Below, in pieces: positions 3,001 through 11,200 of a DNA stretch of 64,000 nt. The notes under the pieces were generated by a model, which was not told where the DNA came from, searched no databases, and saw only the letters and a list, made by a program, of their open reading frames with translations. Numbering within the stretch: position 1 is the first letter of the stretch; every line of letters begins with the position of its first letter. A program made the translations under genes and the position numbers. This stretch comes from Candidatus Falkowbacteria bacterium RIFOXYA2_FULL_47_19 (lineage in GTDB: Bacteria; Patescibacteriota; Patescibacteriia; Patescibacteriales; UBA12075): assembly GCA_001780275.1 (NCBI GenBank), contig MFGB01000022.1:1249-65248 (forward strand), written 5' to 3'.

Positions 3001-4130
3001 GGACCTAATAAATAAAACTCGGGAGATATGTCGGGAGCGTCGAAAGTATATTCCATGATCATTTCGTCGCCGGCCTTTAAATTGACATCTGAAAATATTA
3101 ATCGCTGTTCATCGTCAGAATTTCCAATTTCCAATTTCCAATTTCCAATTTCCTGATTATCAGCATCCCTTAACTCAGGGTCGATGATCCGAAAATTAAT
3201 TGGCACTATTTCGATTAAATTACCCTCATAATCTTCGTTAGCCTTAACATTAATCTTCATCTTATACTCCGCCTTCGGATTGATCCGGGTCGGGCCTTCG
3301 CGCCTGACAATAAACGGCAGTTCTTTTTTCACTTCTATTTTATCCGTAATCGTCCGCTGGCCGTTGACCGTGTCGGCAATAACCGTAATATTATAAACTC
3401 CGGTATCTTCAAGTTCATAATTAGCGTAATAATCCGGCGTATCAATAATATTATTAAGTCCGCAGGCCGGATTACGGGTAATCGTACCGTCCGCGGTGGA
3501 TAAAACCATCTTGCCCCAGCCCGGCTCGTCTATCTCTATAGTTAAGTCGGCGGTGCAGATCGTATCGCCCTCGTCGTCCAGAACGGCCGCCTGAAGATAG
3601 GCGGTGTCTCCCGGTAAATATAAAGATTGGTCCGGATTGAAAGCCAAAACTCCCCAGAGAAAATCCTGGGTAAAAACTATTTCTTCGCCGCCTGTCATAA
3701 CCGCATCCTTGACCGCAATCCTGACCGTGTGTTTTCCCGGCTTCATCGTTCTTCCGGTTCCGCTCAATTTAACCGAAAATTTCCCGTTCTTATTATAAAT
3801 GACCTCCGGAGTTAAACCGCTCTCCGGTGCGTCAGCCAGCTCGGCCTTGATCTCCGTATTCTTATATTCATCAACTATAACTCCCTTAAAAAACGCGCCT
3901 ACGCCTCCCCAAATACCTCGCTGTTTTTTAAACCTGAATTCCATTTCCGGCGTTTCGTTCACGGCAAAATCGGTTTGTTCGGATTGCAAACTCAGCTCAA
4001 AACCGTCTTTAATATGAATATTTTCGTCGCCGGCCAGAACTTGCCCTGTTCCGAAAAAAACAAAAAACATCGCTGTTGTTAACAGTGTCCATGTTTTTAT
4101 CTGTCTGAATTTTTTGTTTTGGATTTGCAT
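1..4130 (-). CDS. Giant secreted surface protein, N-terminal 1376 codons (3' end lies beyond the left edge); paralog of 5292..12131; contains a glycine-rich domain
   Basis: Absent from the supplied track because it has no stop codon inside the window. My own translation of the minus strand from the ATG at 4130-4128 stays open to position 1: MQIQNKKFRQIKTWTLLTTAMFFVFFGTGQVLAGDENIH... (signal/TM). Blocks FLWGVLAFNPDQSLYLPGDTAYLQAAVLDDEGDTIC, YTFDAPDISPEFYLLGPL and ENRHWQIASD align with the 2279-aa ORF. A Gly-rich stretch (about 695-1390) ends in GGAGGSGIVIVRY. Confidence 0.85.
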   Translation of the reverse strand, partial: MQIQNKKFRQIKTWTLLTTAMFFVFFGTGQVLAGDENIHIKDGFELSLQSEQTDFAVNETPEMEFRFKKQRGIWGGVGAFFKGVIVDEYKNTEIKAELADAPESGLTPEVIYNKNGKFSVKLSGTGRTMKPGKHTVRIAVKDAVMTGGEEIVFTQDFLWGVLAFNPDQSLYLPGDTAYLQAAVLDDEGDTICTADLTIEIDEPGWGKMVLSTADGTITRNPACGLNNIIDTPDYYANYELEDTGVYNITVIADTVNGQRTITDKIEVKKELPFIVRREGPTRINPKAEYKMKINVKANEDYEGNLIEIVPINFRIIDPELRDADNQEIGNWKLEIGNSDDEQRLIFSDVNLKAGDEMIMEYTFDAPDISPEFYLLGPLTAISAQGGSALGWENRHWQIASDNPGAIGHYYKNDNTAYSGALGAGVWAPIAGYQIASTTFTAGKKYLISINFSLNNSNANGNAMAQVLHGATVFADSIHRWESRRTLATYTGHGYQFFTVWTAVAGEDINVQVTSATALTYYATGYQAFVINLSDDLVENTDWYYATSTHSGNLPLNPNWSAGSSITIDGGGNDWMMLGMGHFLIDATETNDFMMRLNNTTDSVAYNQVRYEGEDTLDYRPIVLMTGANIAGTKTWRVEAGVATAASHDWDYSAIFAINLNKFQSHYVGYSTDPVSLAVQNTWYPATTTSFTAKTAGDHLIWSQEVADVAENTKVIQSRLTVDGSSVPNGFPDLRRELPNGVDDENVHHNFYLGSLSQSDHTITAEMRETVDVAGAPSITTHNLVAFSMELKTPPTGSFDSVEQRTDGSGIVDISVEITDNDWDPSRAKLEWATSTDCSDFFSHDPTIDETDANITATYGDPTVYNSSPYQIGDIPTGGITATGGTITEEGGYIVHTFMGDGTFAVESGSGDVEVLIVGGGAAGGTGGTAGRGGGGSGGIVYDDAYAVTAGSYAITVGAGGTPGTTATVGGPGGNTVFDTLTALGGGGAGPHATAGTAGGSGGGGSGYSGEAGGAGNQPGSASGGYGNVGGASYDGGGVAPGRNGGGGGAGAVGQDGLVTGGGNGGDGREYSQFASVGGSPAGWFGGGGGGGASSGYTAGSGGQGGGGAGSSTGVGTAGTDGTGGGGGGSVSTGGAGGSGIVIVRYLAPDPYAHILTNSGLNTVNVDWSSDTDLPAANGETYCLRLTANDFTADQTPLATTTLTIDNTAPSISGIITANLMYAIGDTLRATMTVASEAGNLNIGPGSTINGGAVTNILKADNTTFTVDYTVAPGQTDRATGTIPYSISLVDLYGNKSATSSSNFASGSIDANAPAITSMTAPDLLYGIGDTLTATITVSADADIYSLDTSSINWATSSTGALTKINNTTYTVNYTAA
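2961..2984. repeat. Intragenic palindrome GCCCAAGG-N8-CCTTGGGC
   Basis: 8-bp perfect arms read directly from the sequence. It encodes part of ISAQGGSALGW, just N-terminal of the conserved ENRHWQIASD block. Confidence 0.8.
3119..3153. repeat. Heptamer tandem repeat (AATTTCC)x5 inside the giant ORF
   Basis: Five exact 7-nt units. On the coding strand this is (GGAAATT)n, translated as QEIGNWKLEIGN. Confidence 0.95.
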
Positions 4131-4136
4131 TTGACT

Positions 4137-4172
4137 AAGCCACTCGGTGGCTCTAAGGCCACCGAGTGGCTT
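4137..4172. repeat. REP-like 36-nt palindrome, copy 1 (also the likely terminator of the transposase gene)
   Basis: AAGCCACTCGGTGG-CTCTAAGG-CCACCGAGTGGCTT. It lies between the stop of 4181..4885 and the start of the giant ORF, and shares the 5' flank ACTAAGCC with copy 2. Confidence 0.8.
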
Positions 4173-4180
4173 TATTAGCT

Positions 4181-4885
4181 TTATTCCAACGAATATTTTT
4201 TCAACTCCTCTTTAATCTGTCTAGAATTCTTAATCGTTTCGTTTGCGTATTTCCGATAATCGCCAACGCTATCAAACTCTTTTAAAATAATTTTTTTATC
4301 ACACAAGGCCCCTGCTCGCTTGCCCAAATAATCCGGGTAACTCGACCACTGATAACTTTCCGCTTTAGCGATCCCGTGTATCTCCGCGTTGCCGTTAATA
4401 TAGGCCGAAGCGTACGATAATTGCCAGTCGGAGCTAACAGCGACGGATTTGAATTTTCCCTGAAATAAACAGCCGGAGCGTTTGAATTTTTTATTAAAAT
4501 ATTGAGAATATCCCATCATCAGCTTATGCATATACTTTGATATTCCATTATCAACTTTTTGCTCTAAAAGAAAATGGTAATGATTTGGATTTAAACAATA
4601 AGCGATCAATCTAACTAAGCCACCCGGTGGCTCCGAAGCCACCGGGTGGCTTTCCCTTGCTTTTTCAAAAGCAAACAAACTTCCGATATTCTGTTTACGA
4701 TTAAACTCCCTCATGCTCCTTAAAAACCGCACATAATCCTTTTCATCGCCGAAAATCTCCCGCTTGTCCACGCCGCGATTATAGATATGATAATATTCCC
4801 CTGTCTCAAATTTTACTTTACGCATTTTCTTAAAACCAGATTCGGCCATCCGGCAGTTCTGCAGCGAACCGCCGGATGGCTCCAT
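4181..4885 (-). CDS. RayT/IS200-like Y1 (HUH) transposase family protein
   Basis: YYHIYNRG; HUH motif NPNHYHFLL; GCLFQGKFKS; Tyr region SAYINGNAEIHG; YQWSSY. This is the pattern I recognise from COG1943-type REP-associated tyrosine transposases. The more likely start is the M at 4825 (MRKVKFETGEYYHIY). Confidence 0.75.
   Translation of the reverse strand: MEPSGGSLQNCRMAESGFKKMRKVKFETGEYYHIYNRGVDKREIFGDEKDYVRFLRSMREFNRKQNIGSLFAFEKARESHPVASEPPGGLVRLIAYCLNPNHYHFLLEQKVDNGISKYMHKLMMGYSQYFNKKFKRSGCLFQGKFKSVAVSSDWQLSYASAYINGNAEIHGIAKAESYQWSSYPDYLGKRAGALCDKKIILKEFDSVGDYRKYANETIKNSRQIKEELKKYSLE
4617..4652. repeat. REP-like 36-nt palindrome, copy 2, in frame inside the transposase ORF
   Basis: AAGCCACCCGGTGGCT-CCGA-AGCCACCGGGTGGCTT. 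It differs from copy 1 by a compensatory pair (T..A versus C..G) and encodes SHPVASEPPGGL, upstream of the HUH motif. Confidence 0.85.
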
Positions 4886-4922
4886 CGGCTTTTCTTATTC
4901 TTAACGAATAATAAACTTAACT

Positions 4923-5052
4923 GTGTCATTCTGAACGGATCCGCCAACGGGCGGAGGAGTGAAGAATCCCGCGATCGTCGCGCCGTTCCGTTGTTATTCA
5001 GGACGTTGCCATGCCCCCGGGATTCTTCGGCCTCGGGGCCTCAGAATGACAC
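4923..5052. repeat. MITE-like nested palindrome (130 bp)
   Basis: Terminal inverted repeats GTGTCATTCTGA (4923-4934) / TCAGAATGACAC (5041-5052). Inner inverted repeat GAAGAATCCC (4961-4970) / GGGATTCTTC (5019-5028). Confidence 0.7.
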
Positions 5053-5066
5053 TTTTTGCCAACCCT

Positions 5067-5153
5067 GGAAGAGTGAATAAAACCGTAAAATTCGGGCGAA
5101 ATAAAACCGATGTTAATGCATGGGGATACATTAACGGCCTTATTCACTCTTCC
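5067..5153. repeat. Long-stem inverted repeat, possible structured RNA
   Basis: Perfect 14-bp arms GGAAGAGTGAATAA (5067-5080) / TTATTCACTCTTCC (5140-5153), with an internal 7-bp hairpin GTTAATG..CATTAAC. No known RNA family recognised. Confidence 0.4.
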
Positions 5154-5213
5154 GGAGAGGCAAATTTAAAATTTCAAATTACCAAAAAATTCTCCATACA
5201 TTTTATACCCGTA

Positions 5214-5241
5214 GCGCAATATCCAATATCTAATATCCAAT
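5214..5241. repeat. 7-nt-phased repeat GCGCAATATCCAATATCTAATATCCAAT (copy 1 of 2)
   Basis: 28 nt identical to 60633-60660. Heptamers CAATATC/CAATATC/TAATATC/CAAT. Intergenic, just 3' of the giant ORF stop. Confidence 0.95.
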
Positions 5242-5291
5242 TTCTGTTTTAAAATTTATTGATCACTGTTTATTGAGCCTACGCCCATAAC

Positions 5292-8200
5292 TTATTCACC
5301 ACCATCGTCGTTGCGCCATCTATAATGCACTTGCTCAACATAAGGAAACCGCACCTGGAAAATATCCGCGTAAGTATCGGAGTCAAAGCGCCCGCTGTCA
5401 TTGCCGCTTATTACCTCTACCGTATAATTCGTAGCGGTCAACGCGAAGGTCTTGTTGAATAAAATTTTAAAATCCAAGGTGCAGGTCGTACCGGCGCAGT
5501 TAGAGTCGCTATTAACCGACAGCTCGGCCGAGTCTAAGGCGTCGGTGCCGATCTCATAAAAAGCATCAGCCGTCTGGTCCCAATAGAATACGAGGTCGCT
5601 AAAAGGCGAAGCGCTGTCTAAATTATCGGCGAGCCGCAAAGTCGTGGAAGCGAGCGCCTGGTAGCCGTTCGTTTCCGACACCACCACCCGGAAATTCCAC
5701 TCCGTGGACGTGCCGGCAATAGCAATATTGCCCGCTTCCGGATTGGTAAAAGTAAGCGCGTCATTACTGACTGTGCTATTTGTCTTTATTGATATCTCGG
5801 ATGAAGTCGCTTTATTGCCGAAAGCGTCGTAAGACCAGATATTAAAATAATACCAGGTATCGGAATCGAGACCGGATACGGTCGTGGAAGAAACGTCGTT
5901 ATAATTATAACTATCTAAGGCCGCGTCGTCATGCTCTAAATTATCACCGACGACGTAATCCACCACCCCGGCCGCGCCTTTTTTGTAAAATATCTTATAC
6001 GCGTTCGTCGCCGGCTCGTTCGTATCGGTCGCGGGCGAGGCCGTATCAAAAATAAGTTTAATGCTATTAATAGTTACCTCGCCCTGAGTTAAAATTCCCG
6101 GCGCGGTCGGATCATAGTTGTCTATTATAAGTGTCACGGTCGTGGCGACGAGCTGATCATCCAGGCCGTCATTCACGGTGAGCCTTAAACAATGCGTGCT
6201 TGACGCGTACGGCTCGTCGGTCTTACCAAACCAATCAAAAGTAATTGTATTAGATCCGGGCGAAGTCAGTATCCAGTGGTCGGAGCTGCTTGTACCTACT
6301 TGATAAGGGTAATTATTATCAATCTCCGCCAGGCCAAAATCACGAGTAACACTCGTCGGGTCTAAAGTCGGGTCAAGTGATTCCGTAAAATCACAGGCCG
6401 CGCCTTCAGCGTACTCTATTTTCGCCCGGCAGGTATCGTCATTATTAGCGTCATCCACTTCAATGGAAATATCCACGATTCCGGAGCCGTCCGTCCTCTG
6501 TCCGATGTTAGCGAGGTTGAACCCACCCAAGGGCGCGTCATTAGTCATAATGTCCACGCGGGTTGAGCTCGCCCGGTTGCCGTTCTCGTCATAAGCCCAG
6601 ATCGCGAAACTGTATGTCGTCTTCGGGGAAAGATTGCCGATCGAAGTGGTTGCGGCAGAAAGAAAAAACTTGTCGCCCAGACTGGGATCACTGGAAGAAC
6701 TGAACACGCTGTCCGCTTCAGTCGGATCTGTGCCGTCGTAAAGCTGATAAAAAATCTTATATTCAACGAAGTTGGTTTCGGTTGTGGTCGCGCCGAAAGC
6801 GAGGGTCGTGGTCGCCCCGGTCCGCGCCGATAAACTTAAAGCCCCGGGCGCGGTCGGATTTTTCGTGTCTATGTAAACGGTCGTCGTGGCCGGAGTCTCC
6901 TGATCTAAATTAAGATCGTTAGCCGTTATCTGAAGACAATAATCTCCCTCCACCGCCCCCAAGCTTTCGCGCGCAGACCAGTCAAAAAATACCGAATTGG
7001 ACCCTGAGGCGGTCACGATATAACCGTCAACCGTGCCGATCTGGTAGGTCTCGCTATTATCAATATACGGGTCGCCCCAGTCGGCCGTAATATTCCCGTC
7101 CGTTTCGTCCAAAACCGGATTGCCGGTGGTAAAAACGCAGGCCGTGCCGGTCGCGAATTCTATCTTGACGCGCAGGTCATGATCGTCCGGATCGTCAACT
7201 TCCAAACCGATATCAACCGTGCCGCTCATATCGGTTTTTTGCGTGGTAGAAGCCGTAATAAACGAACCGGTCGGCGGGCTATTCGTCCAGCCGTAAGTAT
7301 AAATAAGCTGGCCGTTCAGCTTAGCGCCGTCCGTTGCCGTCAATGTAGTATCGTCGGAATAACAAGCGTTATAAGACTGATTATCGGTCGTGTTCAATGA
7401 TGCCGTTACATCTTTATAAAACTCGGAAAAACTGTTAAAATCATCCGGCTCTAATCGGTAATTATTAGTGCAGGTCGGATTTCCGACAGACAAATTTGCG
7501 TCAACATAGTATACTGTACCGGCTGGCACATCCTTGGTGGAATAACTGTTCAAAAAACTTGCCAATAAACCGCCCGCCATGATCTGCTTGCCTGTCGTCT
7601 CCGGCATTACCGATCTCGCCGTCATTGTGGTGGTGCCGGTGATCGGCGACTCCGAAGACTGGCCGCCGAACAAATTAATGCTCGTTAAATAACCGCCCGA
7701 CTCATCTGTGTAAGTATATGTTATCATAAGCTCGGCCGATATTCCTCCGAACGTCGTGGTATTGAAGGTGGTATTAATTTTTACTTCTTTGGCGGTATTG
7801 GCATTAGCGCTTTCTAGTTCGGCATAATCGCTTGCCGGAATTATATGGATAATGTTGTAAGACGGTTTTATGACCGCGCCGTCGCCATTATAAGCATACA
7901 CTAGATTGGGGGTGGTGGTGGCGTTATCTCCGACCTTAGAAGACACGGACACGCTTAAGGCGGCCGTATTCGGATTTTGCGCGATTATCCTGAACCAGGC
8001 GCTCTTGACGCTTACTATGCCCGTACTGGCTCCATTTTCCGGAAAATACACGTTAGTTGAAGCGCTGGAAAGCGAAAGAGTGGCGCCGTTATTTATCACC
8101 CCGATCGGAAAAGAGACGGTTTTGGTTTTTATTGGCGCCGCGGAAGAAGCGATATAGGTTTCCGTCACTTCGCCGCCAAGAGAATAAAAGGTGCCGATAT

Positions 8201-11200
8201 TAAAAAAGTATTCCAACTGTTGCGCGGAATTCTCCGCGTACCCGGAGTTCGCCCAATCCGGATAGTACATCGCCGGCATATTCCCCTGCGCGCTATTTGC
8301 CTCTTCCCAGTGGAAACTGGGGCTGTCTTGGTCGTAATTCTGGATATTAATATTGGGTCTGGCGTCAGTTGTTGTTATGGCGTCATTATTGGCATACATC
8401 GTAAACCACTGCGCCAGCCGGTTTGTCGTAGTGGCCGTCCCAGACCATTCCGGAATTTCCATATTATAATCAAAGACCGGACAGGTGTTGTTCCTGGCGC
8501 AACTGGTATAAACTATGCTCGCCTGTCTGGTGCCGCGATCAGTACCGTTGGTAGAGTCCAGAGGATATATTACCGTATTGGTAATATTCTCCGAATCAGG
8601 ATCGTAAGTATAGGTCAAAATCAAAATCGCGCCAGCGTTAGCGATTGCCATCTTTGTGTTTGTGTTTTTCAGGTGGTAACCGACCTGAGCTTCCATTTCC
8701 GTTCCGCCGCCGGTATAGGCGGCTAATTGCGCCTCGTCTGTTATATCTAAAAGCAATCTGACGAAATTGCTTTCGCCGTTACCTGTGCCGGCGTCATCAT
8801 AAGAAAGAATGTTGGAATTATTTTCCAAAATAGCGCCCGTGCCGCTAAACGGATTTAAAGAACATCCGCCGGTTTCACAGGTGTCAAAACCAAGCCTGTA
8901 TCCGGTATAATCCGTATCGCTGATCACGGTATAAGCTTCGTATTGGGATTCAAAAATAATATACGCGTTTTTTATATCAACGCCCGTTTCCGCGAGTTTG
9001 AATTTAAAACTGGAAAAAGTATAATCCTGGTTCGTGTTTTGTCCGGTATTACCTCCGGCGGAATCATCGTTCCATGTTCCCGCCTGGAACATAACCGTCC
9101 GCGCCCGCTTGCGGACCGCGTCCGAAGCGATCTGCCAGCGGCGATTCTCAGAAGCTGAGCTTCCAATTGGAAGCTCAGCTTCTTTTAACGCCAGAGGCCC
9201 AACCAAATACAATTCCGGCGACCGGTCCGGCGCGTCGAACGTATAGCTTATTTCCAGCTCATCACCCGCGAAAATTTCCACATCCTGCCAAACCAATTTT
9301 TTCACCCCATCCTCTTCTATTTCGTAATACTTGTAGTTCGCACCGTACGGATCACGTCCGTCCGTATTCGACATTCGAAAATCGACATTCGAAATTTTGA
9401 ATCCCGTCGGCACAGATTCAACAATATCCCCCTTAAAATCTTCTCCCGGCTTAACAACAATCCTAAACCCATAGTCCGCCTTCGGCCAAATTCTGGTCGG
9501 GCCCAGGCGCTCTATATCGAACAAACGCTCCTCGGCGACGACTATCGTCTCTCTTATCTCTTTCTCTCCTGTCCGCATCGTAAATTCGTACTCGCCCGCC
9601 TCGCTGAAAACATAACGAACGTAATAATCCGGCTCGCTCGTCACCGTTTCCGGCCCGCACTGTTCGCTTAATTTTATGCCGCCGTTTTCGACCGTCAGCG
9701 TCTCGTCAATTCGTAATTCGTAATTCGTAATTCGTAATTCGGCGGCCGCGCCGCAAACCGTATGTCCGGATTCATCCAAAACTGCCATCTGGATATAAGC
9801 TTCTTCACTCGGGACATACATAGATTTATTAAAATTCATGGCCAGAACCCCCCAGGAAAAATCCTGCATTAACTCGAATTCTTCCACTTCCTCGCCGGAC
9901 CGGTCCGTGATATAGAACTTAACCGAATATTTTCCCGGTTTAAGTTTATCCGAAATTTCCGGCAATTTGATCGTAAATTCCCCGCCCTCGTCAAAGATCA
10001 AGGTCAAAGGATAATCGACTGCCGCGCCCGAGCTGTCGACTAGTACGGCCCGGATATCGACGTTTCTCCAGAAGTCTCCGAGGCCGATCATCTCGCCTAA
10101 AGTGTCCCAGATCCGATTCTCGTTCTTTTTGTATTTAAATATCATCTCCCCCTCTTCGTTAACACTGAAAGTTAATTGATCAGAAAGCAGGGTCAAAGCC
10201 TCTTCCCAGCGTTTTCTCTTCTCTAGCATATCAAGCTCGTCTTCGCTCTCGTATTCCGCCTCCACCCAGACGCTGTCCAAATAAGCAATAAATTCTATCT
10301 CTTCGTTAACCACGCCCTCGAATTTCAATTTTAAATTGCGGACATCGTCCCAATTCTCCAAAAAATCAGCTTTGTAACCGAAATAGCCATTATTAACGGC
10401 ATTCGACAAATTATCAGCAGTTAAAATATCTAATTGCTGCCAAATTTGATTGTCTTCCCCCGCTTCATCCTCTGTGGTGCTGGCGTTATCAAGCGAATAC
10501 CAGATAATAATCTTCGCGTTCTCCCGCAAAAATCCATTTTCCGCTAAAGCAGTTTTAGGCGCTGCTAAAATCCGATACAGATCAAAAAGCGTCAGCGGTT
10601 CAACACCGGTCTCATCCATAACCGGATCTTCATCTTCGTCATTTGTAATTCGTAATTCGTCATTCGTTATTAATTCGTCTTCGTCTTCTGTTATCTCTAT
10701 GGTTGGAGCGTTTTCCTCTGCCGGAGAAATATCGCCGCCGAAATTCGTAATTAGTAATTCGTTATTTTTACCCGCCGACTTGTCCGCCGACGCTTCATCC
10801 GTAGCCGGTTCTTCGTTTTCGTTATTCGACATTCGAAAATCGCCATTCGAAATTCCCATCTCCGGCACCAAAAACCCGTCATTAAGATCTATCACCTCCA
10901 CCACGCCTTCATCCGTCAAAACCTCGGAGTTTACCGGCGTTTCTTCCGGCGTTTCCCCACCGCTAGCATCTACTTCGTTATTACTCTCAATTTCTTCTTC
11001 ATCGGCCACGGCCCCCTCAGAAGATTCGCCGTCTTCGTCATTCGTCATTCGAAAATCGCCATTCGAAATTCCCGCTCTCCCTCCGGCCAGAGAAAATTTT
11101 ATCTTAGCGCCCGTGAATTTTCCTAAGTCTTCCAGGGTATCGATATTCTCGTTCGTTACCTCGTCGGCCAGAACCTCGCCGGCGTAAACTGCCGGAGTGC

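What the first reader, a model, noticed from the sequence alone, without database searches (positions are those of the whole stretch)
4137..4885. A RayT-like Y1 transposase whose own coding sequence carries an in-frame copy of its putative REP hairpin
Seen directly: two 36-nt palindromes share the flank ACTAAGCC and differ by a compensatory pair (T..A versus C..G). One lies 8 nt downstream of the gene (4137-4172). The other lies inside the gene (4617-4652).

The internal copy adds about 12 residues (SHPVASEPPGGL) between the conserved N-terminal YHIYNRG region and the HUH motif, and it does not break the ORF.

Established: RayT-type HUH transposases are associated with REP hairpins, which usually flank the gene.

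Inference: this is a self-targeting insertion tolerated in a loop, or a regulatory hairpin. It also places a REP/RayT-type pair in a CPR-like genome between two giant surface-protein genes.
Basis: partly seen in the sequence, partly recalled or inferred. Interest (0 to 1): 0.6.

Follow-up and report, generated by a model that had tools for sequence, protein, structure and literature searches.

The report
REP hairpin inside its transposase gene
A candidate-phyla (Falkowbacteria) bacterium has a RayT-like single-strand-DNA transposase gene that carries, in frame in a surface loop, a copy of the same palindromic DNA hairpin that sits just after the gene; this is the normal state of a whole Patescibacteria clade of such genes and a variant of something already described in other bacteria.

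Summary
Two 36-nt perfect palindromes (4137-4172 and 4617-4652) share the flank ACTAAGCC and differ by one compensatory pair. One lies 8 nt after the stop codon. The other encodes S59-L70 of a 214-aa Y1/HUH protein whose best structural match is E. coli RayT (4ER8).

It is not a one-off insertion. In 56 related Patescibacteria genes, hairpins of at least 9 bp lie upstream of the start (45), in this same linker (39), in a second loop after the catalytic-Tyr helix (16) and at or after the stop (41), and nowhere else in the coding sequence. Internal copies match their own flanking copies (median identity 0.91, against 0.48 for other loci). Sequence, length, reading phase and exact insertion point differ between genomes, and empty and decayed sites exist.

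The best reading is cognate REP/REPIN-like elements that repeatedly insert or are replaced, in frame, in two permissive loops.

In-frame REPs inside tnpAREP genes were reported for subclass 2.4 (Quentin et al. 2018). New here are the host group, a subclass-2.1-like protein (a subclass reported without REPs), the insertion sites and the cassette-like turnover.

Dispersal of the repeat in this genome is not shown: there are only two copies in about 74 kb.

The parts
4181..4825 (-). RayT-like Y1/HUH gene, 214 aa from MRKVKF. The open frame continues upstream to 4885, which gives the annotated 234-aa product P0001.
   Evidence: ORF. Pfam Y1_Tnp 38.1 bits. All homologues start at MRK. AF2 model pLDDT 87, best PDB match 4ER8 RayT at E 3.7e-6.
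4614..4652 (.). Internal REPIN-like palindrome: the 36-nt palindrome at 4617-4652 plus the shared ACT at 4614-4616. It is read in frame as S59-L70 (SHPVASEPPGGL). Its 3' end on the gene strand (GGC TTA GT) supplies the conserved Leu-Val that starts strand beta2.
   Evidence: The residues form a loop with block pLDDT of 65 in the model.
4134..4172 (.). Downstream copy of the same palindrome: 4137-4172 plus the shared ACT. It begins 8 nt after the stop codon and ends a few nt before a possible start of the next giant gene.
   Evidence: There is no T-run on the gene strand.
4845..4880 (.). Upstream hairpin of a different sequence (GCCATCCGGC-N16-GCCGGATGGC; imperfect arms extend to 4832-4893). 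It ends 20 nt before the ATG at 4825, the position where homologues carry a cognate hairpin.
   Evidence: (I2), and (-20.4 kcal/mol, z -5.8). Position class 'U'.
4574..4582 (-). HUH motif codons (H82-Y83-H84).
   Evidence: Read. These columns are invariant in A1.
4400..4402 (-). Codon of the presumed catalytic Tyr142 (SAYINGN, the Y-x-x-x-N motif).
   Evidence: Read. Invariant in A1.
4772..4795 (-). N-terminal YYHIYNRG motif (strand beta1).

Best explanation
The 36-nt palindromes are the cognate REP/REPIN-like hairpins of this RayT-like Y1/HUH single-strand-DNA endonuclease. Each one is an inverted dimer of a 15-nt hairpin.

The internal copy is such an element sitting in frame in a permissive surface loop, between the N-terminal helices and the strand that leads into the HUH motif.

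This is the standard architecture of a Patescibacteria clade of these genes. Hairpins occupy four fixed positions: 5' of the start, loop 1, loop 2 after the Tyr helix, and the stop codon or 3' flank.

Inferred mechanism:
1. The enzyme acts preferentially on nearby single-stranded DNA.
2. It inserts, or replaces in place, hairpin cassettes at conserved 'feet'.
3. Only insertions that are multiples of 3, stop-free and located in the two tolerant loops survive selection on the ORF.
4. Continued replacement keeps the internal copies like the flanking ones, while the peptide they encode drifts freely.

Shown: the anatomy, the positional restriction, the locus-specific identity, the turnover, and the fold of the protein.

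Inferred: that this enzyme binds, cleaves or moves these hairpins, and that the internal copy is tolerated rather than required.
For: Protein:
- Pfam Y1_Tnp hit.
- HUH motif and Tyr conserved.
- AF2 model matches 4ER8 RayT+REP best, then the IS608 and ISDra2 TnpA structures.

Window:
- Two copies, one in the linker loop and one after the stop.

Family, from 72 genes in 80 species-representative loci:
- The linker's best-hairpin score averages 9.85, against 5.63 for a coding control and 5.34 for shuffles.
- Hairpins of at least 9 bp occur at 2.5 per kb in the gene units and 0.34 per kb outside them. They fall in four sharp positional peaks.
- In the LNPNH clade (n=56) the counts are: upstream 45, site 1 39, site 2 16, downstream 41, elsewhere in the coding sequence 0.
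- Internal copies match their own flanks with median identity 0.91 (42 of 65 comparisons at 0.8 or above). Against other loci the median is 0.48 (8 of 264).
- In a 22-sequence alignment 98.2% of cells are paired, all 10 pairs show double changes, and there is only one G-U pair. That is a DNA-type palindrome.

Evidence for recurrent turnover and a dispensable segment:
- The same hairpin type is read in different phases.
- Insertion points differ by 6 nt, and empty and decayed sites exist.
- L010 and L017 are 85% identical in DNA, yet the 11-nt upper-stem and loop cassettes are replaced at all four sites between conserved ACTTGG/CCAAGT feet.

Relatives and dispersal:
- The closest relatives carry the same AGCCAC-type dimer, with three covarying pairs.
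- Dispersed cognate copies exist in other genomes: 31 outside the units, 7 of them in frame in other genes.

ORF integrity:
- All 80 loci keep an intact ORF.

Precedent:
- In-frame REPs inside tnpAREP genes of subclass 2.4 (PMC6006769).
Against: - No biochemical link between this protein and these hairpins exists.
- In this genome only two copies were found in about 74 kb, so a dispersed REP family is not demonstrated.
- The upstream hairpin in the window has a different sequence.
- The protein scores far below the NCBIfam RayT equivalog cut-off (28.7 against 80 bits).
- The very sharp positions and the 70% occupancy of site 1 could equally reflect a selected function.
- The alignments used for covariation were chosen because they contain hairpins, so those statistics are partly circular. 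The independent tests are the occupancy and position statistics.
- Most loci are MAG contigs.
Confidence: 0.68

Rival explanations
1. The internal hairpin is a selected cis-regulatory element. It could act at the mRNA level (ribosome pausing, or a processing or stability site). It could also be an operator-like site on ssDNA or RNA that the enzyme binds to limit its own expression. The flanking copies would be part of the same control circuit.
For: Occupancy is high and position is strict across the clade. Pairing is maintained through many double substitutions. The upstream hairpin lies between a promoter-like site and the start codon. RayT enzymes are known to be strongly down-regulated or auto-inhibited (PMC3479197).
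Against: Empty and decayed sites occur in intact genes. Stem length ranges from 9 to 24 bp, and monomers and dimers are interchangeable. There are essentially no G-U pairs, which would be unexpected for a purely RNA-level structure. No T-run follows the hairpin on the gene strand. Identical elements also occur dispersed and inside unrelated genes.
Confidence: 0.15
2. The whole unit (hairpin, gene, hairpin) is an IS200-like insertion sequence. The flanking hairpins are its left and right ends. The internal copy is a by-product of the element's own end recognition.
For: Flanking hairpins sit at fixed short distances from the start and stop codons, as the subterminal hairpins of IS200/IS605 do. 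IS608 and ISDra2 TnpA are the next-best structural matches.
Against: There is one gene copy in the window. Where two genes occur in one locus they are diverged paralogues with different hairpins. The close relatives L088 and L090 share a syntenic position next to ksgA. Hairpin-only copies are dispersed without the gene. The fold matches monomeric RayT best.
Confidence: 0.08
3. The palindromes are generic terminator-like or chance structures unrelated to the enzyme, and the 12 residues are simply an ancestral, fast-evolving protein linker.
For: The downstream copy lies in an intergenic gap where a terminator could be expected. The consensus scan calls terminator-like sites there, but on the opposite strand.
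Against: No matches occurred in shuffles. The same element lies inside the ORF. Density is enriched 7.5-fold in the gene units. Hairpin identity is locus-specific. The peptide differs with reading phase while the palindrome is kept.
Confidence: 0.03

Closest known systems
In-frame REP insertions inside tnpAREP genes of TnpA-Y1 subclass 2.4 (Bertels group 4); Quentin, Siguier, Chandler & Fichant 2018, PMC6006769
   Same: Cognate REPs flank the gene and also sit inside it without breaking the frame. The inserted region is variable in length and sequence and is predicted to be peripheral. 'Double-foot' (fully palindromic) REPs occur in both. Some relatives here even have GTAG...CTAC feet (L012, L014, L018, L055).
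   Different: [quoted passage not shown] Here site 1 is N-terminal to HuH and site 2 is after the Tyr helix. The motifs here are NHYH / LFQG / YINGN plus a WSSY tail, against NH[IFV]H / WQ / YIxNNP in 2.4. The hosts are Patescibacteria, not Cyanobacteria or Bacteroidetes. That paper called the feature unique to subclass 2.4.
TnpA-Y1 subclass 2.1 (Bertels group 1; 'TIRYT' of Di Nocera et al. 2013, PMC3733652)
   Same: The motif set matches: NH[YF]H, FQ, Y-x-x-x-N(P) and a serine-containing (SS) proximal tail (one search compared).
   Different: Subclass 2.1 was reported with no REPs (flanked by TIRs at most). It usually carries a C-terminal HTH domain and has a median length of 238 aa. The CPR proteins are about 215 aa, lack that domain and do have cognate hairpins. 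Assignment here rests on motifs only; the authors' HMMs were not run.
E. coli RayT/TnpAREP with REP/BIME, and REPIN-RAYT systems (PMC3479197, PMC8266576, PMC3116915)
   Same: HUH/Tyr ssDNA nuclease fold (best PDB hit 4ER8). The gene is flanked by its own hairpins. Inverted REP dimers (REPINs) occur. Enzyme and hairpin co-vary between genomes.
   Different: No unpaired 5' GTAG foot or bulged stem is evident. Hairpin copy number near the genes is low. Copies lie inside the gene. NCBIfam score is 28.7, below the 80-bit cut-off.
Rickettsia palindromic elements (RPE) and REPs inside genes (Di Nocera et al. 2013, PMC3733652)
   Same: Palindromic mobile DNA is tolerated in frame in protein-coding genes and adds short peptide segments in loops.
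   Different: RPEs are longer, belong to an unrelated sequence family, and are not reported in the gene of their own mobilising enzyme.

Membership tests
Y1 HUH transposase superfamily (Pfam PF01797) | Profile match above Pfam's gathering score | tested here: met
   38.1 bits against a cut-off of 23, E 1.9e-9. Only the part from the HUH strand onward aligns, because the linker interrupts the match.
Y1 HUH transposase superfamily (Pfam PF01797) | HUH motif and catalytic Tyr on a C-terminal helix | tested here: met
   H82-Y-H84 and Y142 (YINGN) are invariant in A1. Their codons were read at 4574-4582 and 4400-4402.
Y1 HUH transposase superfamily (Pfam PF01797) | Fold similar to solved TnpA structures | tested here: met
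   AF2 model has pLDDT 87.1 and pTM 0.86. Foldseek gives 4ER8_A at E 3.7e-6 (TM 0.68 on the target), followed by IS608 and ISDra2 TnpA.
RayT / TnpAREP (NCBIfam NF047646 equivalog) | Score at or above the curated cut-off | tested here: not met
   28.7 bits against a cut-off of 80.
RayT / TnpAREP (REPtron) | Gene flanked by copies of its own palindromic repeat | tested here: inconclusive
   In the window there is a cognate copy downstream and a different hairpin upstream. In homologues both flanks usually carry the cognate hairpin.
RayT / TnpAREP (REPtron) | Repeat dispersed in many copies through the genome | tested here: inconclusive
   There are only 2 copies in about 74 kb of this genome. 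Related loci hold 31 dispersed cognate copies in about 0.89 Mb.
RayT / TnpAREP (REPtron) | Conserved 5' GT[AG]G guide tetranucleotide at the foot of the hairpin | tested here: inconclusive
   The window element contains GTGG...CCAC, but inside the paired stem. Some relatives have GTAG...CTAC double feet and many have ACTT[AG]G...C[CT]AAGT.
RayT / TnpAREP (REPtron) | Enzyme binds and cleaves its REP as ssDNA | not testable with these tools
   Requires biochemistry, as in PMC3479197 and PMC8266576.
TnpA-Y1 subclass 2.4 (in-frame REPs in tnpAREP) | [quoted passage not shown] | tested here: not met
   The window insertion is N-terminal to HuH. The motifs are NHYH, FQ and YINGNA.
TnpA-Y1 subclass 2.1 | NH[YF]H, FQ, Y[IV]xLNP and an SS tail; C-terminal HTH domain; no REPs | tested here: inconclusive
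   The first four motifs are present or nearly so (one search compared). The protein is too short to hold the C-terminal HTH domain, and no such Pfam domain was hit. REP-like hairpins are present. The authors' HMMs were not run.
REPIN (inverted REP doublet) | Two REPs in inverted orientation separated by a short spacer | tested here: met
   AGCCAC-CCG-GTGGCT + TCGG + AGCCAC-CGG-GTGGCT. The loop triplets of the two halves covary in 9 sequences.
IS200/IS605 insertion sequence | Multiple near-identical copies of gene plus ends | tested here: not met
   There is a single gene in the window. Paralogues in other loci are diverged and carry different hairpins.

The most novel reading that the evidence does not exclude
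The internal hairpins are not just tolerated passengers. They would be maintained 'master' or docking copies.
- The enzyme would catalyse in-place exchange of the upper-stem and loop cassette between conserved feet at four fixed positions in and around its own gene. This would be a REP replacement reaction not yet described.
- Enzyme and substrate would then be inherited as one indivisible replicator and could switch specificity together in streamlined CPR genomes.
Probability: 0.2. Interest if true: 0.75.

Novelty: new variant of a known kind. Interest (0 to 1): 0.5.

Why it matters
REP/RAYT systems are the best-studied case of a domesticated transposase living with its own non-autonomous repeats. 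No paper in the searched library describes them in the candidate phyla radiation.

This case shows three things:
- A clade close to subclass 2.1, which was reported without REPs, does have cognate hairpins.
- Copies are built into the enzyme's own reading frame at two fixed loops.
- Hairpin cassettes turn over much faster than the gene around them.

It offers a compact natural system for studying how Y1 enzymes choose and replace hairpins, and how small genomes tolerate mobile palindromes inside proteins. There is also a practical point: gene callers extend these ORFs through flanking hairpins, and domain models break at the linker.

Tried and rejected
- **Chance.** Rejected by shuffles and folding z-scores.
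- **Known RNA family.** Nothing near threshold in Rfam for 3800-5400.
- **Intrinsic terminator for the gene.** The only T-rich tails are on the opposite strand.
- **Ancestral peptide under protein-level selection.** Rejected. The same palindrome is read in different phases, and peptides differ while pairing is kept.
- **Single recent insertion in this genome.** Rejected. The same element sits at the same site in relatives that are 55-63% identical.
- **Pseudogene.** Rejected. All invariant residues are kept and all 80 related loci have intact ORFs.
- **Further copies or degenerate monomers in the window.** None found.
- **A paralogous Y1 gene in the window that might own the 9150-9183 palindrome.** None found.
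- **Sequence search of the PDB with the family profile.** No hit. Only the fold search worked.
- **Metagenome scan for the hairpin.** It returned 7 loci, none from this genome, so it could not give a genome-wide count.
- **First literature search.** Uninformative because of word-start matching.
- **Register error.** My second structure string had the wrong register for the second half-hairpin and is not used.

Full report
**1. Observation**

The gene is on the minus strand. The open frame runs 4181-4885 (234 aa), but every homologue starts at MRK. The likely start is therefore the ATG at 4825, giving 214 aa.

Two 36-nt perfect palindromes lie at 4137-4172 and 4617-4652.
- Both are preceded by ACT and followed by T.
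- They differ by one compensatory pair and in the central loop.
- No match appears in 100 shuffles.
- As ssDNA they fold at -19.9 and -22.8 kcal/mol, with z about -8.

The first begins 8 nt after the stop codon. The second is read in frame as S59-L70 (SHPVASEPPGGL), between YYHIYNRG and HYH.

Each is a nested palindrome: an inverted dimer of the hairpin AGCCAC-NNN-GTGGCT.

A third hairpin, of different sequence, lies at 4845-4880. It ends 20 nt upstream of the likely start and falls inside the annotated N-terminal extension.

The locus is identical in four independent assemblies. The source is Candidatus Falkowbacteria RIFOXYB2_FULL_47_14. The neighbours are fn3-type giant genes of 2279 aa and 5297 aa.

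**2. The protein**

- Pfam Y1_Tnp scores 38.1 bits against a cut-off of 23, but only from the HUH strand onward.
- The NCBIfam RayT equivalog scores 28.7 bits against a cut-off of 80.
- An AF2 model built on 28 homologues has pLDDT 87.1 and pTM 0.86. Residues 60-70 form a loop between helix 50-59 and strand 71-78, in the lowest-confidence internal block.
- Foldseek finds E. coli RayT bound to a REP (4ER8) first, at E 3.7e-6. The IS608 and ISDra2 transposases follow.
- The HUH motif and Tyr142 are invariant.

**3. The family context changes the reading**

Homologues (2934 proteins at E <= 1e-3, mostly Patescibacteria) have the same length as the window protein. The 'insert' lies in a hypervariable linker. 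Many of those linkers read like translated palindromes.

I fetched 80 loci from species-representative genomes and analysed 72 genes.

- *Linker hairpins.* The linker's best hairpin averages 9.85 paired bases. A coding control of the same length gives 5.63 and shuffles give 5.34.
- *Position.* Hairpins of at least 9 bp occur at 2.5 per kb in the gene units and 0.34 per kb elsewhere. They fall into four sharp positions: just 5' of the start, the linker (site 1), a loop after the catalytic-Tyr helix and before the SSW motif (site 2), and the stop codon or 3' flank.
- *Occupancy.* In the LNPNH clade (n=56) the counts are 45, 39, 16 and 41, with none anywhere else in the coding sequence. In the more distant LMPNH type (n=16), site 1 is occupied twice. 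The window's pattern (upstream, site 1, downstream) is the commonest one.
- *Locus specificity.* Internal hairpins match their own flanking hairpins with median identity 0.91. Against flanks of other loci the median is 0.48.
- *Pairing.* In a gap-free alignment of 22 site-1 hairpins, 98.2% of cells pair. All 10 pairs show changes on both sides. There is a single G-U pair, which fits a DNA palindrome rather than an RNA-only structure. These sequences were chosen because they contain a hairpin, so the independent evidence is the occupancy and position statistics.

**4. Turnover and dispensability**

- The same hairpin type is translated in different phases. For example, CTTGGAAGC...GCTTCCAAG reads as LGSxASK in most genes but as HLEASLPSA in L046.
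- Insertion points differ by two codons. Some genes have a clean Lys-rich linker without any hairpin, and others hold decayed copies.
- L010 and L017 are 85% identical in DNA. Yet at all four sites the 11-nt upper-stem and loop cassette is replaced between conserved ACTTGG/CCAAGT feet.
- 108 hairpins of this A-CTTRG-N4-loop-N4-CYAAG-T class occur in the 80 loci. Others have GTAG...CTAC double feet.
- Long palindromes are inverted dimers of short ones.
- All 80 loci keep intact ORFs.

**5. The window's own repeat family**

The three closest relatives found (P0002 in L088, P0005 in L090, and the gene in L086; 55-63% identical) carry the same AGCCAC-type dimer at site 1. The loop triplets of the two halves covary: three pairs change on both sides and none is broken.

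L090 also has a copy after its stop codon. L088 and L090 each have a copy in frame inside the neighbouring ksgA gene.

In the window genome I found only the two copies in about 74 kb. Dispersal is therefore not shown here.

**6. Mechanism**

*Established for E. coli TnpAREP:* it is a monomeric HUH/Tyr enzyme. It binds a folded ssDNA REP and its GTAG foot, cleaves at a CT dinucleotide, forms a 5'-phosphotyrosine link, and can rejoin to another 3'-OH (PMC3479197; PMC8266576).

*Inferred here:* the CPR enzymes act on hairpins in their own neighbourhood and exchange or insert cassettes at conserved feet. Selection on the ORF then leaves only stop-free copies, in multiples of three, in two permissive loops.

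A selected regulatory role is not excluded. The strict positions and high occupancy argue for it. Empty and decayed sites, interchangeable stem lengths and the absence of G-U pairs argue against it.

**7. Comparison with what is known**

- Quentin et al. 2018 (PMC6006769) reported REPs inserted in frame within tnpAREP genes as a 'unique feature of subclass 2.4'. [quoted passage not shown]
- REPs inside other genes, and RPEs, are also known (PMC3733652).
- The CPR proteins have the motif set of subclass 2.1 (NH[YF]H, FQ, Y-x-x-x-N, SS tail). That subclass was reported without REPs.
- Bertels et al. 2017 likewise found strong REP association only for groups 2 and 3.
- No paper in the searchable library links CPR or Patescibacteria with REP or RAYT.

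**8. Verdict**

It is wrong in treating this as a special event in this gene.

This is a new variant of a known kind. It is of moderate interest to specialists, mainly for the fixed sites, the cassette turnover and the host group.

Noticed in passing
window 9150-9183: A perfect 34-nt nested palindrome, AGAAGCTGAGCTTCCAATTGGAAGCTCAGCTTCT, folds at -17.3 kcal/mol (z -7.9). It lies in frame inside the 2279-aa giant gene and encodes EAELPIGSSAS. It closely resembles the hairpin after the L001 RayT-like gene (GAAACTTAGTTTCCAATTGGAAACTAAGTTTC) and the linker peptides of P0013, P0033 and P0024 (EAKLPIGSLAS). It appears to be a second REP-like family in this genome, with no matching Y1 gene in the window.
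   Followed up: partly
window 4923-5052: A 130-nt structured inverted repeat (GTGTCATTCTGA...TCAGAATGACAC closing a three-way junction; -36.8 kcal/mol, z -4.9) lies between the RayT-like gene and the giant gene. It is single-copy in the window and has no Rfam match.
   Followed up: partly
L088 8724-8761 and L090 6855-6892: AGCCAC-type REP dimers lie in frame inside the ksgA (RrnaAD) gene, which sits next to the RayT-like gene in two different genomes. The gene order ksgA, 170-aa ORF, RayT-like gene is conserved between them.
   Followed up: partly
window 4826-4885: The public annotation (P0001, 234 aa) starts 20 codons too early, to judge from all homologues. The extension is the translated upstream hairpin.
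   Followed up: yes
related loci, e.g. L013 3827, L010 1194, L017 10455, L048 about 10453: There is a second conserved in-frame hairpin site, in the loop after the catalytic-Tyr helix and before the SSW motif. It is sometimes occupied when site 1 is empty. It is not occupied in the window gene.
   Followed up: partly
L010 640-1500 compared with L017 9905-10790: These two genes are 85% identical in DNA. All four hairpin cassettes (11 nt each) are swapped between conserved ACTTGG/CCAAGT feet. L017 carries two cassette types, distributed crosswise among its four sites.
   Followed up: partly
window 54020-54227: A 62-nt tandem repeat of 3.4 copies at 98% identity. Each unit holds the palindrome CGCGGGGCGAATGCCCCGCG. 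There are no spacers, so it is not CRISPR-like.
   Followed up: no
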